The notes: a model not told the origin generated them from the letters alone. Counted from the first letter of the stretch, positions 42,558 to 45,372 are shown. The stretch is 64,000 nt of DNA from a virus (IMGVR_UViG_3300028920_000032:64001-128000), one strand, 5' to 3'. Program-made: numbers and translations.

Positions 42558-42752
42558 TTATTTATTTTCTTTTATATATTCTTGAATTTCAGTAAATCTA
42601 TTTGAAAATTCATCCCATTCATCAACAGACATAGAAATACCCTTCCCAGGTCTCAACTCTCCGTCTTTTTCAAACCATTTTCTGATGTGCACATACTTTT
42701 TGCTTTTAAAATCACTAATATGTATTTTGATATCTTTTCCTATATTAATCAT
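42558..42752 (-). CDS. PC4/YdbC-like single-stranded nucleic-acid-binding protein
   Basis: I.ISDFK.K.YVHIRKWF..DGE..PGKGISM...EW. Confidence 0.85.
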   Translation of the reverse strand: MINIGKDIKIHISDFKSKKYVHIRKWFEKDGELRPGKGISMSVDEWDEFSNRFTEIQEYIKENK

Positions 42753-42788
42753 TGCTTTCTTCCTCTTAAAATTTTAGCTAAGAACTTA

Positions 42789-44396
42789 TTAAATTTCATC
42801 ATTAGCAACCATTTGTATCATTTTTGGTGTCTGTGATGTGAATGATGCAACATCATATGATCTTGGATCTTTTGGGTCTACAAGAGAAACGCGGTCGCTG
42901 TATGGTACTAATGTAATATATATTGATTTAGCATTTGGATTAATTTTACTTCTGTATTCTTTTAATGCTTGCGATGGGTGTCTATGACCTGTCCATGATT
43001 CTGAGTCAGTAACAAATACGAATACATCAGCAAATATATCATTTTTAATTGCATAGTCATATGCAACTGAAGCATTAGTGCCACCAAAATTTCCTGGCCA
43101 TACACCAGACCCCCAATCTACGATTTCACTGTAAGAACAGTTTTTTGTAATTCTCTGTAGAACTTTGAATCGTGTATCAAATCCACCAACGAAGTAGTTC
43201 TTTTCTGATTTAACAGATGCAAGGGCTAATATACCAGCAACTTGATATGGAGCTAACCACATGTTGCCGACCATGTTACCTGTCATAGAGCCTGAAACAT
43301 CAAGAGCATAGAAAAACTGTTTACCTGTTGGTTCTAGAACTTCGAAACAGTCTTGAATTCCTTGATTCATTATATCGAGTATTCTTGGTACTGTATTCCA
43401 TGTCAACTTAGATCTTCCAAGATGGCCGCCACTCTGGTAAACTAACAATGCTGATGCAAAATTAATTGGATGAATGTAAGCTTTTGCTAAATTTTCTTTA
43501 GATAATTTTTTCTCAAGAAGATCGAGATTAGCCACATTCTTAAAAATACCTTTTTCAGTTAAGTTGCCTAAATTTCTTATTGTGGCTCCTACTGGCATAT
43601 TGTGAAATAAAGCTTCCCAAATACCTGTAGTTCTTTTGATATTAGCTGGAATCATTTCATGAGTAAGTTTGAGGTCATTGATCATAAGAATAACTGCATC
43701 TTCTGAAGTTGATGCGCTTTTAAGAATTTCATATCCTGCAATCCTATTCAAGCCATTCGCTTCAACTATATTAAAGCCTTTGCCTACAGCCCATTTATAA
43801 ACAGAGTTCTTGTTTACATCCTCAGTTTTTGGTTTAAACTTTCTTAAGATGTCAGCATGTGTCCATCCATTCCTATTCTGGTACTTAAGCAATTGGTACT
43901 CAAGTTCTTTCGCTTCTTTTGCATCCAACCATCCATTTACAGCTTTGTGAATAACAGAACCAAATCCTCTCATGTCTTTAACATAAGATGTGAACTCATA
44001 AAGATGTGAAGCAGTTCTGATAACAGAATTGAAGATGTCTCTGAATACATTCTTTGAAGATGCATCACCCATCGACAACACCACAAGAGCAAATATTGGT
44101 GTATGTACAGATGTACCCTTTTTAGAAGCATCTATGATTTCTTCACCAACTTTAGATGCATTCGCTTTGATACAACGGTTAAGAACTTTAATGTTTGCTT
44201 CTGTCATTTCTTCTTTGCCTTGGTAATAAGCTCCAGACATAGAACCAACTAATAACCATCGTCTTAAAGCTGTCCAATCACTAGCTTTAAAACTATAACC
44301 GCCGGCTAAATTCTTTTTCATTTCACTTTCTCTACCTGGAATTGGTTTATTTTGAGGCGTCTCTTTTCTATTTTTTCCAACAAAATTATAATTCAT
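42789..44396 (-). CDS. rsr: Ro60/Rsr TROVE-domain RNA-binding protein with VWA/MIDAS
   Basis: N.AGGY.F, L.RWLL.GS..G.YY, KYQNRNGWTHAD.LR, MP..A.IRNLG, IHP, ALDVSGSM, GGT, VTDSESW. Confidence 0.95.
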   Translation of the reverse strand: MNYNFVGKNRKETPQNKPIPGRESEMKKNLAGGYSFKASDWTALRRWLLVGSMSGAYYQGKEEMTEANIKVLNRCIKANASKVGEEIIDASKKGTSVHTPIFALVVLSMGDASSKNVFRDIFNSVIRTASHLYEFTSYVKDMRGFGSVIHKAVNGWLDAKEAKELEYQLLKYQNRNGWTHADILRKFKPKTEDVNKNSVYKWAVGKGFNIVEANGLNRIAGYEILKSASTSEDAVILMINDLKLTHEMIPANIKRTTGIWEALFHNMPVGATIRNLGNLTEKGIFKNVANLDLLEKKLSKENLAKAYIHPINFASALLVYQSGGHLGRSKLTWNTVPRILDIMNQGIQDCFEVLEPTGKQFFYALDVSGSMTGNMVGNMWLAPYQVAGILALASVKSEKNYFVGGFDTRFKVLQRITKNCSYSEIVDWGSGVWPGNFGGTNASVAYDYAIKNDIFADVFVFVTDSESWTGHRHPSQALKEYRSKINPNAKSIYITLVPYSDRVSLVDPKDPRSYDVASFTSQTPKMIQMVANDEI

Positions 44397-44479
44397 ATTA
44401 AACCTCCTTCAGCTCTCATAATGAGAACAAAATAAATATTTTGAGACTTGCTTCTATTCATTTATTAGTAAAAGAAATG

Positions 44480-44548
44480 AATAAAGAGCAAGTTGGTTGA
44501 TAAAGGGTTAACCCATGAACGATAACCTCTACCATTCAGCTCTTTATT
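44480..44548 (-). ncRNA. Mini Y-RNA-like hairpin in Ro60 5' leader
   Basis: AAUAAAGAGC-UGAAUGGU...GUUAUC...ACC-AACUU-GCUCUUUAUU; resembles the Ro-binding helix of Y RNAs. Confidence 0.6.
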
Positions 44549-44600
44549 AAAGATTATAATTCTATAATCGATATTGTGTTCATAAATAATATATGCGACT

Positions 44601-44652
44601 AAAAAAGTTCTCCATGGCCTTCTATGCTTATAATAGCTCCAGCCATGGAGAA
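44601..44652 (-). terminator. Terminator closing the ncRNA cluster
   Basis: TTCTCCATGGC...GCCATGGAGAA followed by CTTTTTT. Confidence 0.75.
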
Positions 44653-44671
44653 TTAAATATTTAATCTTCTA

Positions 44672-44995
44672 ACGAATAAATCAGCAACTGTATAGCCGGC
44701 TTTGTCATCAACTTAGTGATCATACATCTAATTATAAAGTTGAAAGTTGGAGTTTGCCGTTTCCTTTTAATTATAATCGTTCTTTCAAAATTAGGTTTTG
44801 TGAGCATTGCTCTTATCAAGCGTCCCTGATAAATAACAGTGTTTACTGCTGAGCATTTTCAGACTTGAGAGCGGAACAATATCTATATGTGCCCTCTACT
44901 AGACTTACTTCATGATCACTAATAAAAGCAGTATTTCCAGTAACTTACTAAGCTGACACTAACTAATTTTAAATATAACAGAACTGATTTACCGT
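44672..44995 (-). ncRNA. ~324-nt structured RNA with RNase P RNA-like motifs
   Basis: Terminal stem UAAAUCAG/CUGAUUUA; long-range stem UUAGUGAUCAU/AUGAUCACUAA; motifs AAGUC, ACGGCAAACUCC, UAGAUGUAUGA, GACAAAGCCGGCUAUA; no ORF. Confidence 0.6.
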
Positions 44996-45014
44996 CGAAT
45001 ATAAACGGTGTTTA

Positions 45015-45138
45015 CGAGCTAGTGAGTGTTAGATGGTATAACTTGGCTGGCTTAATAGTCTAAGTCAAAACGTTTAATACTTGTCATTAAGACAATTCTT
45101 GTATACTATCATGTCGATAACCATCTAAATTCAGCTCG
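45015..45138 (-). ncRNA. 124-nt Y-RNA-like RNA
   Basis: 5' CGAGCUGAAU-UUAGAUGGU-UAUC pairs with 3' ACCAUCUAA-CACUCACU-AGCUCG; shares GAGCUGAAU and GGUUAUCG with 44480..44548. Confidence 0.7.
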
Positions 45139-45372
45139 ATTTATTTTAAACCAAGCGATCTTTAAAAGATCTTATCATTGAAAGTTAAAAATTATTTAAT
45201 CCAAAATAACTAACCTCCAAATTAAATGATTAAAATTACATATGCCACTGCAATAATTTATCTTGAGAAAAAAACAGAAAATTTTGAGAAATTAATTATA
45301 AAAACTAACTTTTTGCATACTTAATAAAGAATATATTGGATAAAGATAATTATATACTATTAAAGGAGATAT

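What the first reader, a model, noticed from the sequence alone, without database searches (positions are those of the whole stretch)
42558..45250. Phage Ro60 ribonucleoprotein locus with three different Y-like RNAs and a PC4 protein
Seen, in transcription order: GCATA motif (45245), 124-nt RNA, ~324-nt RNA, terminator (44601-44652), second GCATA motif (44596), 69-nt hairpin, Ro60, PC4-like gene. All three RNAs are closed by 5'/3' stems followed by GUUAU; two share GAGCUGAAU. Known: bacterial Rsr genes neighbour Y RNAs that tether Ro to effectors such as PNPase, and some phages carry them. Inference: a modular RNA quality-control system with exchangeable RNA subunits, matching the phage's CCA-less tRNAs and CCA enzyme.
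Basis: partly seen in the sequence, partly recalled or inferred. Interest (0 to 1): 0.88.

Follow-up and report, generated by a model that had tools for sequence, protein, structure and literature searches.

The report
Phage Ro60 gene with Y RNAs
An uncultured 158-kb marine-sediment phage carries a Ro60 ring-protein gene with two real partner "Y RNAs" just upstream and two more inside its tRNA gene array; this is a new sequence variant of a known RNA-protein particle, while the 324-base RNA and the PC4 gene are not shown to belong to it.

Summary
Every listed feature sits at the stated coordinates.

- Ro60 (TROVE + vWA) and the PC4-like gene are real.
- The 124-nt RNA (W1) and the 69-nt RNA (W3) share a two-helix "handle". 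It reads: lower stem, UGAA loop, 7-bp upper stem, UUAYCG; then, on the 3' side, CUUG and the lower stem.
- A covariance model of this handle gave 55 hits in Ro60 loci. All lie on the Ro60 strand, and all in related loci lie upstream of Ro60, with up to 8 per locus.
- Covariation is strong: the upper helix is 98% paired and all 7 of its pairs covary.
- The handle is a one-base variant of the published bacterial Ro-binding motif. It carries the UUAUC motif of nematode stem-bulge RNAs, the Y RNA homologues.

**What does not hold.**
- The 324-nt RNA lacks the handle. It has no detectable relatives and no Rfam match, including RNase P.
- PC4 is not found next to Ro60 in any relative.

**New points.**
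- Two further handle RNAs lie 30 kb away in the tRNA array. One is a YrlA-like tRNA mimic; the other fits between two tRNA genes.
- The Ro60 ribosome-binding site copies half the handle, which suggests autoregulation.

**Context.** Phage Ro60 with Y RNAs is already in print, and this scan has noted similar multi-RNA Ro60 arrays on other DNA. There are no expression data.

The parts
42558..42752 (-). PC4-like gene (64 aa), 37 nt downstream of Ro60. It is probably co-transcribed, but it is not conserved in this position in relatives.
   Evidence: Pfam PF02229, E 1e-16. Matches human PC4 structure 1pcf, E 1e-8. No PC4 next to Ro60 in relatives.
42789..44396 (-). Ro60 / Rsr-type protein (535 aa): TROVE ring plus a vWA domain with a MIDAS motif.
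   Evidence: Pfam PF05731 and PF25045. Full-length matches to solved human, Xenopus and Deinococcus Ro60, E about 1e-59. The D-x-S-x-S motif is invariant in 22 relatives.
44403..44428 (-). Ro60 translation-start element. A 7-bp hairpin (44428-44412) ends in C and is followed at once by UGAAGGAGG (44411-44403), 6 nt before the AUG. It copies the 5' half of the Y RNA handle.
   Evidence: The same layout occurs in 8 of 9 clade loci, with six different stem sequences. The ten-letter word occurs once in the 158-kb genome.
44480..44548 (-).
   Evidence: Handle model R1 73 bits, R2 71 bits. Fold z -3.9. Best Rfam match is the nematode stem-bulge RNA family RF01656, 21.5 bits, E 0.011, below threshold.
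44553..44582 (-). Sigma-70-like promoter match (TGAACA, 18 nt, TATAAT). The predicted start is about 44546, at the first bases of W3.
   Evidence: Consensus scan, 10 of 12 matches, the best in the region. This is a prediction only.
44592..44596 (-). Second GCATA motif, 10 nt upstream of the -35-like hexamer.
   Evidence: The motif lies within 60 nt upstream of 9 of 55 Y units against 2.9 expected. Its role is unproven.
44602..44652 (-). Intrinsic-terminator-like hairpin (12 bp) with a six-U tract. It ends the upstream RNA unit.
   Evidence: Fold -22 kcal/mol, z -4.0. Perfect 11-nt inverted repeat I18.
44675..44997 (-). It has a long closing helix and an 11-bp inner helix (44922-44912 with 44723-44713). 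It has no Ro handle and its class is unknown.
   Evidence: z -1.86. No handle hit with filters off. No Rfam hit, RNase P included. No homologue found.
45015..45138 (-). Y RNA W1 (124 nt): the handle plus a branched inner domain that is not tRNA-like. Its handle subtype matches the 'b-type' unit of related phages.
   Evidence: R1 31 bits (E 8e-5), R2 46 bits (E 3e-7). The first 29 nt are nearly identical in 5 loci.
45157..45219 (-). Two leader hairpins between the first GCATA motif and W1.
   Evidence: Fold z -2.3. No comparative support.
45241..45245 (-). First GCATA motif. It is followed by a 16-17-nt word that is also found 60 nt upstream of Ro60 in locus L001.
   Evidence: It is unique in the genome.

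Best explanation
This is a phage-encoded Ro60-Y RNA ribonucleoprotein system.

**Components**
- The Ro60 ring protein is made from 42789-44396.
- At least four small RNAs of the genome carry the same Ro-binding handle: a lower stem closed by the RNA's 5' and 3' ends, an internal loop starting UGAA, a 7-bp upper stem, then UUAYCG. The 3' strand returns through CUUG into the lower stem.
- W1 and W3 lie directly upstream of Ro60.
- G4 (a YrlA-like tRNA mimic with T arm, capped acceptor stem and D arm) and G5 (a short hairpin) lie about 30 kb away in the tRNA array.

**Inferred action**
- Ro60 grips the handle.
- The variable inner module of each RNA decides what the particle is tethered to. By analogy with Deinococcus, Salmonella and Thermus phage phiLo, that would be host PNPase or another exoribonuclease, or tRNA-handling enzymes.
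- The particle would then help degrade or mature structured RNA during infection.

**Inferred transcription and processing**
- Unit 1 comprises W1, the 323-nt RNA and the terminator.
- Unit 2 starts at W3 and runs into Ro60 and PC4, so W3 would be cut from the mRNA leader, as in Mycobacterium smegmatis.
- G4 and G5 would be freed by the enzymes that cut the flanking tRNAs.
- The hairpin plus UGAAGGAGG at the Ro60 start site would let Ro60 hold back its own translation.

**Shown versus inferred**
- Shown here: the genes, the conserved covarying handle, and its strict linkage to Ro60 genes.
- Inferred: binding, processing, the effector and autoregulation.
For: - **Protein:** Ro60 domains and full-length matches to solved Ro60 structures.
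- **Handle census:** model R2 gives 55 hits at E <= 0.1 in 241 kb of Ro60 loci. All are on the Ro60 strand, and all hits in related loci are upstream of Ro60: 8 in L128; 6 in each of L131, L130 and L151; 5 in each of L001 and L154. R1 gave the same picture on loci L151-L158, which were not used to build the models.
- **Own genome:** exactly four hits in 158 kb: W3, G4, G5 and W1.
- **Covariation on 55 sequences**:
  - 90.8% of cells paired against 63% in shuffles;
  - upper helix 98.4% paired, with all 7 pairs changed on both sides;
  - score 0.80 against at most 0.24 when partners are slid.
- **Invariant letters in 55 of 55:** the G of UGAA, UUA-C, and the G of CUUG.
- **Link to the published bacterial motif:** positions 7-14 read G-C-(U in 48, C in 7)-G-A-A-N-G, a one-base variant of GNCGAAN0-1G (PMC4201824).
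- **G4:** matches Rfam YrlA over the whole model at 34.9 bits, through its T arm, acceptor hairpin and D arm.
- **W3:** its best Rfam match is the nematode stem-bulge RNA family. Those RNAs are Y RNA homologues (PMC4726728), and their loop begins with the conserved UUAUC (PMC4450293).
- **Precedent:** phage Ro60 binding two upstream Y-like RNAs and forming a complex with host PNPase is shown for Thermus phage phiLo (PMC12135203).
- **tRNA flanking:** G5 lies 1-2 nt after tRNA-Cys and 4-5 nt before tRNA-Phe. G4 starts 1-2 nt after tRNA-Ala. The same interleaving occurs in L155 and L154.
Against: - There is no expression, end-mapping or binding evidence of any kind.
- Rfam's curated Y_RNA and YrlA models do not reach threshold on any of the four RNAs.
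- The alignments used for pair counts were fitted to the model, which favours the structure.
- W1's lower stem is only 5 bp and its fold z-score is modest (-2.05).
- No PNPase or RtcB gene is present in the record (for RtcB), so the effector is unknown.
- The record is estimated to be about 70% complete.
Confidence: 0.8

Rival explanations
1. All three upstream RNAs, including the 324-nt one, are Ro60-bound Y RNAs. On this reading the large one has a degenerate handle.
For: - RNA2 is closed by a terminal helix of about 15 bp.
- Its 3' strand reads much like the family's 3' strand, and the five letters GUUAU follow its 5' strand.
- It shares a transcription unit with W1, upstream of the terminator.
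- Related phages hold a conserved ~390-nt RNA in the same slot.
Against: - The handle model scores nothing there even with filters off; the best other hits are under 9 bits.
- The invariant UGAA loop, the upper stem and the C of UUAYC are all missing.
- Ro60 mainly contacts the 5' strand (PMC4201824).
- The fold z-score is only -1.86.
- No homologue was found, so there is no covariation to support it.
Confidence: 0.12
2. The 324-nt RNA is a remodelled RNase P RNA.
For: By eye, three short words resemble conserved regions I, IV and V of bacterial RNase P RNA. They lie in the right order relative to a closing helix and an 11-bp P2-like helix.
Against: - The Rfam RNase P model finds only the true 233-nt mini RNase P RNA at C1:142182-142414 in this genome. 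It finds nothing at this locus at E <= 10.
- A scan of the 351-nt stretch alone gives no RNase P family at E <= 10.
- The two strands that should form the catalytic P4 helix are not complementary (my reading).
- A hairpin sits in the wrong place for P3.
Confidence: 0.04
3. W1 and W3 are not free-standing RNAs. Instead they are cis-acting leader structures that control Ro60 transcription or mRNA stability.
For: - W3 starts at the predicted transcription start and no terminator separates it from Ro60.
- All handle units in related loci lie upstream of Ro60 on the same strand.
Against: - Two units with the same handle lie 30 kb from Ro60 inside the tRNA array, flanked by tRNA genes.
- W1 is separated from Ro60 by a strong terminator.
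- Up to eight different units per locus are hard to explain as a leader.
- The handle matches the Ro-binding part of known Y RNAs.
Confidence: 0.06
4. PC4 is a working third component of the particle: a single-strand binder or chaperone that acts with Ro60.
For: - The PC4 gene lies 37 nt after Ro60, with no terminator found between them.
- In the closest relative with DNA in hand (L126, Ro60 72% identical), the same slot holds a cold-shock-domain protein, another small single-strand binder.
Against: - There is no PC4 or cold-shock gene next to Ro60 in the other loci checked. Downstream genes there include thioredoxins, a Band-7 protein and a helix-turn-helix protein.
- The pattern rests on two cases.
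- PC4-fold proteins are known as single-stranded DNA binders.
Confidence: 0.15

Closest known systems
Bacterial and mycobacteriophage Rsr (Ro60) with YrlA/YrlB Y RNAs (Chen et al. 2014, PMC4201824; Rfam RF02553)
   Same: - Y RNAs are encoded upstream of Ro60 on the same strand.
- A terminal stem carries the Ro-binding motif.
- There is more than one Y RNA per genome.
- One RNA has a tRNA-like domain (G4) and others are plain hairpins (W3, G5).
- The RNAs are likely processed from a common precursor.
   Different: - The motif has U where the published GNCGAAN0-1G has C, in 48 of 55 units.
- An invariant UUAYCG follows the upper stem.
- The Rfam YrlA model misses W1, W3 and G5, and scores G4 at half its threshold.
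- The tRNA-like member lies 30 kb from Ro60 in a tRNA array, not within 4 kb.
- Relatives carry up to 8 units.
Thermus phage phiLo Ro60 with Yrl1 and Yrl2 (PMC12135203, 2025; PDB 9KOP, 9L5Y)
   Same: A phage Ro60 with Y-like RNAs directly upstream of the gene. That study shows binding and a ternary complex with host PNPase, and it is the working model used here.
   Different: - This is a different phage lineage, and phiLo Ro60 was not among the sequence matches.
- phiLo has two RNAs with a CGAA motif. Here there are four RNAs with a UGAA variant, two of them in the tRNA array.
- Nothing has been tested experimentally here.
Metazoan Y RNAs and nematode stem-bulge RNAs (Rfam RF00019, RF01656; PMC4450293, PMC4726728)
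   Same: - Lower stem, internal loop, upper stem, then UUAUC at the 5' end of the loop.
- The 3' strand returns through CAACUUG-like letters.
- W3's best Rfam hit is the stem-bulge RNA family, aligned end to end.
   Different: - The hit is below the family threshold (21.5 against 38 bits).
- There is no bulged C of the vertebrate type.
- These are bacterial-virus genes without a polymerase III context.
- The similarity to human Y1, Y4 and Y5 is recalled from memory and was not tested.
PC4/Sub1 single-strand binding fold (PF02229; human PC4 1pcf)
   Same: The 64-aa protein matches the PC4 C-terminal domain over its whole length.
   Different: No link between PC4 and Ro60 is known. It is not conserved next to Ro60 here, so it is best read as a neighbour until shown otherwise.

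Membership tests
Ro60 / Rsr (TROVE) protein | TROVE HEAT-repeat ring domain | tested here: met
   PF05731, E 3e-22. Aligns over residues 13-534 with solved Ro60 of human, Xenopus and Deinococcus, E about 1e-59.
Ro60 / Rsr (TROVE) protein | C-terminal vWA domain with a MIDAS D-x-S-x-S motif | tested here: met
   PF25045, E 1e-27. D366, S368 and S370 are invariant in 22 clade members.
Ro60 / Rsr (TROVE) protein | Binds Y RNA and misfolded RNA | not testable with these tools
   Needs pull-down or gel-shift assays.
Bacterial Y RNA (YrlA/YrlB type, Chen et al. 2014) | Encoded within about 4 kb of Ro60 on the same strand | tested here: met
   W1 and W3 lie 84-740 nt upstream on the same strand. G4 and G5 are on the same strand but about 30 kb away.
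Bacterial Y RNA (YrlA/YrlB type, Chen et al. 2014) | GNCGAAN0-1G motif near the 5' end within the terminal stem | tested here: not met
   W3 and W1 read G-C-U-G-A-A at these positions, with U in place of the defining C. Across the family the count is U 48 and C 7. This is a one-base variant, so I file these as a variant, not as YrlA or YrlB.
Bacterial Y RNA (YrlA/YrlB type, Chen et al. 2014) | Reaches the Rfam YrlA (RF02553) gathering score | tested here: not met
   No hit on W1 or W3 at E <= 10. G4 scores 34.9 bits against a threshold of 69.
Bacterial Y RNA (YrlA/YrlB type, Chen et al. 2014) | At least one Y RNA per genome with a tRNA-like domain (T arm, acceptor-like stem, D arm) | tested here: met
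   G4 (L006 5158-5020, minus strand) aligns to the T arm, acceptor hairpin and D arm of the YrlA model.
Bacterial Y RNA (YrlA/YrlB type, Chen et al. 2014) | Bound by Ro60 and stabilised by it | not testable with these tools
   No RNA data are available.
Metazoan Y RNA / nematode stem-bulge RNA | Lower stem, loop or bulge, upper stem, then UUAUC at the start of the loop | tested here: met
   UUAYC is invariant in 55 of 55 units directly after the covarying upper stem. The motif is described for stem-bulge RNAs in PMC4450293.
Metazoan Y RNA / nematode stem-bulge RNA | Reaches the Rfam gathering score (RF00019 or RF01656) | tested here: not met
   RF01656 scores 21.5 bits against 38, E 0.011, on W3 alone. 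RF00019 gives no hit.
Bacterial RNase P RNA (considered for the 324-nt RNA) | Match to the covariance model and a P4 helix | tested here: not met
   RF00010 hits only C1:142182-142414 in this genome. Nothing appears on 44660-45010 at E <= 10. The putative P4 strands are not complementary by inspection.
Intrinsic terminator | Stable G+C-containing hairpin followed by a U tract | tested here: met
   A 12-bp stem, -22 kcal/mol, z -4.0, then six U. The simple scanner missed it because its loop exceeds 8 nt.
PC4 / Sub1 | PC4 C-terminal single-strand-binding domain | tested here: met
   PF02229, 60.5 bits against a cut-off of 25. 1pcf, E 1e-8.

The most novel reading that the evidence does not exclude
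The phage runs a self-contained, multi-RNA Ro60 particle with four unusual properties:

- Its handle is the ancient Y RNA handle shared with animals (UUAUC after the upper stem, CAACUUG on the return strand).
- Its RNAs are partly released from the tRNA array by tRNA-processing enzymes, possibly the phage's own mini RNase P.
- Ro60 throttles its own translation through a half-handle mimic at its ribosome-binding site.
- The handle-less 324-nt RNA, like the conserved ~390-nt RNA in the same slot of related phages, is a new class of Ro60-locus RNA acting as a scaffold or substrate.
Probability: 0.22. Interest if true: 0.75.

Novelty: new variant of a known kind. Interest (0 to 1): 0.55.

Why it matters
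Ro60-Y RNA particles are known from animals, some bacteria and a few phages. Curated models find few bacterial Y RNAs, and it is still unclear what sets the handle's specificity. This locus matters for four reasons.

- **A well-supported family outside the curated models.** It defines a large handle family with strong covariation that Rfam's curated models do not detect. The family is common in uncultured marine-sediment phages and has up to eight different RNAs per Ro60 gene.
- **A possible route for Y RNA maturation.** Y RNAs can sit inside tRNA arrays, exactly between tRNA genes. This suggests that they are released by tRNA processing.
- **A clue to the UUAUC motif.** The handle shares UUAUC with nematode stem-bulge RNAs, the Y RNA homologues. 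This points to a very old feature that travels with Ro60 and whose role could be tested in a simple phage system.
- **A testable regulatory idea.** The handle-like ribosome-binding site of Ro60 offers a direct test of autoregulation.

None of this changes the basic picture of Ro60 biology. It widens that picture.

Tried and rejected
- **DNA search of the locus against 50,697 phage records:** no match.
- **Exact-pattern scan of viral contigs with the 5' handle words**: apart from L001, which I already held, the hits were chance matches in coding DNA. I dropped this route in favour of Ro60-anchored loci.
- **Closer Ro60 relatives:** I could not fetch the contig of the 69%-identical protein P0002, so I could not ask whether the 324-nt RNA is conserved in a near relative.
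- **Sequencing runs:** no RNA holder was listed. One DNA run is probably the source sample, and a second holds only short unrelated pieces.
- **RNase P reading of the 324-nt RNA:** rejected.
- **Homology of the 324-nt RNA to the conserved ~390-nt RNA of L001, L128 and L131, or to the post-b region of L127:** blastn, nhmmer and shuffled local alignments all gave nothing above chance.
- **GCATA as a genome-wide promoter word:** rejected.
  - With one mismatch it is no commoner than in shuffles.
  - The extended forms are unique to this spacer.
  - It is not enriched downstream of Y units.
  - It is about three-fold enriched upstream of units, so a local role stays open.
- **A uORF coupled to Ro60 in the window's leader:** not conserved in relatives, so dropped.
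- **PC4 as a conserved partner:** not supported.
- **RtcB:** no gene in the record. An RNA-ligase family match was weak and below cut-off.
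Full report
**Genes**

On the minus strand, a 535-aa protein (42789-44396) carries the TROVE and Ro60-type vWA domains. It aligns end to end with the solved Ro60 proteins of human, Xenopus and Deinococcus at E about 1e-59. Its metal-site motif is invariant in 22 relatives.

A 64-aa PC4-fold gene follows 37 nt downstream (42558-42752). Upstream, an M23 peptidase gene (45373-46278) and a 285-aa gene run the other way. Both are syntenic with Ro60 in several related loci.

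The window is part of a 158,329-bp IMG/VR virus record, estimated about 70% complete. The record comes from a marine sediment metagenome.

**The spacer**

The 976 nt between Ro60 and the peptidase gene hold no ORF over 52 aa. The 864 nt folded (44397-45260) give z -6.2.
- the 124-nt RNA (W1, 45138-45015);
- a stretch of about 323 nt closed by a long helix (RNA2, 44997-44675);
- a strong hairpin plus six U (44652-44602);
- the 69-nt hairpin (W3, 44548-44480);
- two copies of GCATA.

**A conserved handle**

W1 and W3 share a 23-nt block (D2). The same block recurs many times upstream of a 58%-identical Ro60 gene in viral contig L001. It also recurs upstream of other Ro60 genes of 48-63% identity from metagenomes and viral contigs.

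I built a covariance model from ten short copies (A1, R1). I then built a second model from 30 matches (R2).

R2 finds 55 units at E <= 0.1 in 241 kb of Ro60 loci searched on both strands. Every unit is on the Ro60 strand, and in the related loci every one is upstream of Ro60. Counts per locus are 8 in L128; 6 in each of L131, L130 and L151; and 5 in each of L001 and L154. R1 had already found the same pattern on loci L151-L158, which were not used to build the models.

In the phage's own 158 kb there are exactly four hits:

| RNA | R2 score (bits) |
|---|---|
| W3 | 71 |
| G4 | 55 |
| G5 | 47 |
| W1 | 46 |

Pair counts on the 55 units are as follows:
- 90.8% of cells are paired, against 63% after shuffling.
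- The upper helix is 98.4% paired, with compensatory changes at all seven pairs.
- The covariation score is 0.80, against at most 0.24 when partners are slid.

These alignments were fitted to the model, which flatters the numbers. The seed alignment made by MAFFT alone already showed the compensatory changes.

**Relation to known Y RNAs**

The letters invariant in all 55 units are the G of UGAA, UUA-C after the upper stem, and the G of CUUG on the return strand.

Positions 7-14 read G-C-(U or C)-G-A-A-N-G. The published bacterial Ro-binding motif is GNCGAAN0-1G. Ro60 is reported to contact mainly this 5' strand (PMC4201824). The family therefore carries a one-base variant of that motif, and 7 of 55 units have the canonical C.

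Rfam's curated models do not reach threshold:
- Nothing appears in the spacer at E <= 10.
- YrlA scores 34.9 bits against a threshold of 69, and only on G4.
- When W3 is scanned alone, its best match is the nematode stem-bulge RNA family. The alignment runs end to end at 21.5 bits and E 0.011.

Stem-bulge RNAs are homologues of Y RNAs (PMC4726728). Their loop begins with a highly conserved UUAUC (PMC4450293), the same letters that are invariant here. From memory, human Y1, Y4 and Y5 also carry these letters after the upper stem. I did not test that.

**Different inner modules**

- W3 and G5 are little more than the handle.
- W1 has a branched inner domain with no T-loop. Its first 29 nt are nearly identical to the 'b-type' unit of L127, L001, L128 and L131, but its interior does not align with theirs.
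- G4 has a canonical T arm, a capped 7+2-bp acceptor-like stem and a D arm, in the YrlA order.
- L128 and L130 also hold tRNA-like units.

It is the established view of Y RNAs.

**The 324-nt RNA**

RNA2 fails every test I could apply:
- There is no handle hit with filters off.
- It lacks the UGAA loop, the upper stem and the invariant C.
- Its fold z-score is -1.86.
- It has no Rfam family.
- It has no homologue by blastn, nhmmer or shuffled local alignment.

The RNase P model finds only the true 233-nt RNA elsewhere in the genome. The strands that should form P4 are not complementary.

Related phages L001, L128 and L131 do carry a conserved ~390-nt RNA in the same slot, after the b-type unit and before a terminator. 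It has a long-range helix with a compensatory change. I could not link it to RNA2.

I therefore treat RNA2 as an orphan non-coding stretch of the first transcription unit. Roughly one chance in three that it is a functional RNA of its own kind seems fair.

**Y RNAs in the tRNA array**

- G5 lies 1-2 nt after tRNA-Cys and 4-5 nt before tRNA-Phe.
- G4 begins 1-2 nt after tRNA-Ala.
- The same interleaving is seen in relatives. L155 has tRNA-His, two units, tRNA-Trp, then Ro60. L154 has a unit 2 nt before tRNA-Gly.

I infer that tRNA end-processing releases these RNAs.

The phage has 31 tRNA genes, 30 of them without encoded CCA. It also has a CCA-adding enzyme gene and a mini RNase P RNA. In M. 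smegmatis, YrlA is cut by RNase P and receives CCA (PMC4201824). G4's seven-pair acceptor-like stem makes the same fate possible.

**The Ro60 start site**

In 8 of 9 loci of the close clade, a 5-8-bp hairpin ending in C is followed at once by UGA(A)GGAGG and, 6-8 nt later, the AUG. The hairpin stems have six different sequences. The ten-letter word occurs once in the whole genome.

The letters before AAGGAGG are not explained by pairing with the 16S rRNA 3' end. That statement rests on general knowledge of the anti-Shine-Dalgarno sequence.

This element copies the layout of the handle's 5' half, a stem ending in C and then UGAA. I propose that Ro60 binds it and limits its own translation. This is inference only.

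**Transcription signals**

The best sigma-70-like match in the region is TGAACA, 18 nt, TATAAT (44582-44553). It would start transcription at the first bases of W3. No terminator separates W3 from Ro60. The hairpin plus U tract at 44652-44602 ends the W1-RNA2 unit.

GCATA precedes both units. In the family it lies within 60 nt upstream of 9 of 55 units against 2.9 expected, often 13-18 nt upstream. It is not a genome-wide word. It may be part of a promoter, but this is open.

**PC4**

No PC4 gene lies beside Ro60 in any fetched relative. In L126, the closest relative with DNA in hand (72% identity), the same slot holds a cold-shock-domain protein. Two different small single-strand binders in one slot is a hint. 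With only two cases it is not a finding.

**Verdict**

This is a real phage Ro60-Y RNA system. It has two Y RNAs, not three, at the locus, and two more in the tRNA array.

The kind is known:
- Chen et al. 2014 list 22 phages.
- Thermus phage phiLo Ro60 binds two upstream Y-like RNAs and host PNPase (PMC12135203).
- Ro60 in jumbo phages is noted in PMC7824862.

This scan has also noted shared-handle RNA arrays beside Ro60-like genes on other DNA.

What is new:
- the handle variant, which curated models miss;
- the size of the arrays in relatives;
- the tRNA-flanked copies;
- the handle-like ribosome-binding site.

No expression or binding data exist for any of it.

Noticed in passing
L006 5158-5020 (-) = genome C1:140157-140019: G4 is a 139-nt YrlA-like RNA with the same handle plus a T arm, capped acceptor-like stem and D arm. 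It starts 1-2 nt after tRNA-Ala in the tRNA array, about 31 kb from Ro60.
   Followed up: yes
L006 4058-3984 (-) = genome C1:139057-138983: G5 is a 75-nt handle-only RNA wedged between tRNA-Cys and tRNA-Phe, with gaps of 1-2 nt and 4-5 nt.
   Followed up: yes
L001 2026-2432; L128 2289-2682; L131 2497-2882: A conserved ~390-nt non-coding RNA lies between the b-type Y unit and a terminator in three related phages. It has a long-range helix with one compensatory change and no Rfam family.
   Followed up: partly
L126 1481-1666 (+): In the closest Ro60 relative with DNA in hand (72% identity), the gene right after Ro60 is a 61-aa cold-shock-domain protein, in the slot where the window has PC4.
   Followed up: partly
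L155 3627-3938; L154 3388-3587: tRNA genes and handle RNAs are interleaved directly upstream of Ro60 in two more distant relatives.
   Followed up: partly
L006 7183-7415 (-) and 3221-3347 (-): There are sub-threshold Rfam hits to RNase P RNA (68.9 bits, 233 nt) and tmRNA (44.8 bits) inside the tRNA array. Both were already reported by other agents of this scan.
   Followed up: no
genome C1:136321-136393 (-): ARAGORN calls a tRNA-like gene with a two-letter anticodon loop reading ('tt').
   Followed up: no
L160 393-464 (+): The handle model also hits 2.5 kb upstream of a 36%-identical Ro60 gene on a Candidatus Eiseniibacteriota MAG chromosome (39 bits). The handle variant is therefore not limited to phages.
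   Followed up: no
protein list: The nearest named cellular Ro60 proteins to this phage clade are cyanobacterial (Nostoc, Calothrix, Tolypothrix; 46-48% identity).
   Followed up: no
window 45220-45236 (-) and L001 2905-2921: A 17-nt identical AT-rich word is shared between the window's spacer (just after the first GCATA) and the Ro60 leader of L001. It is unique in the genome and its meaning is unknown.
   Followed up: partly
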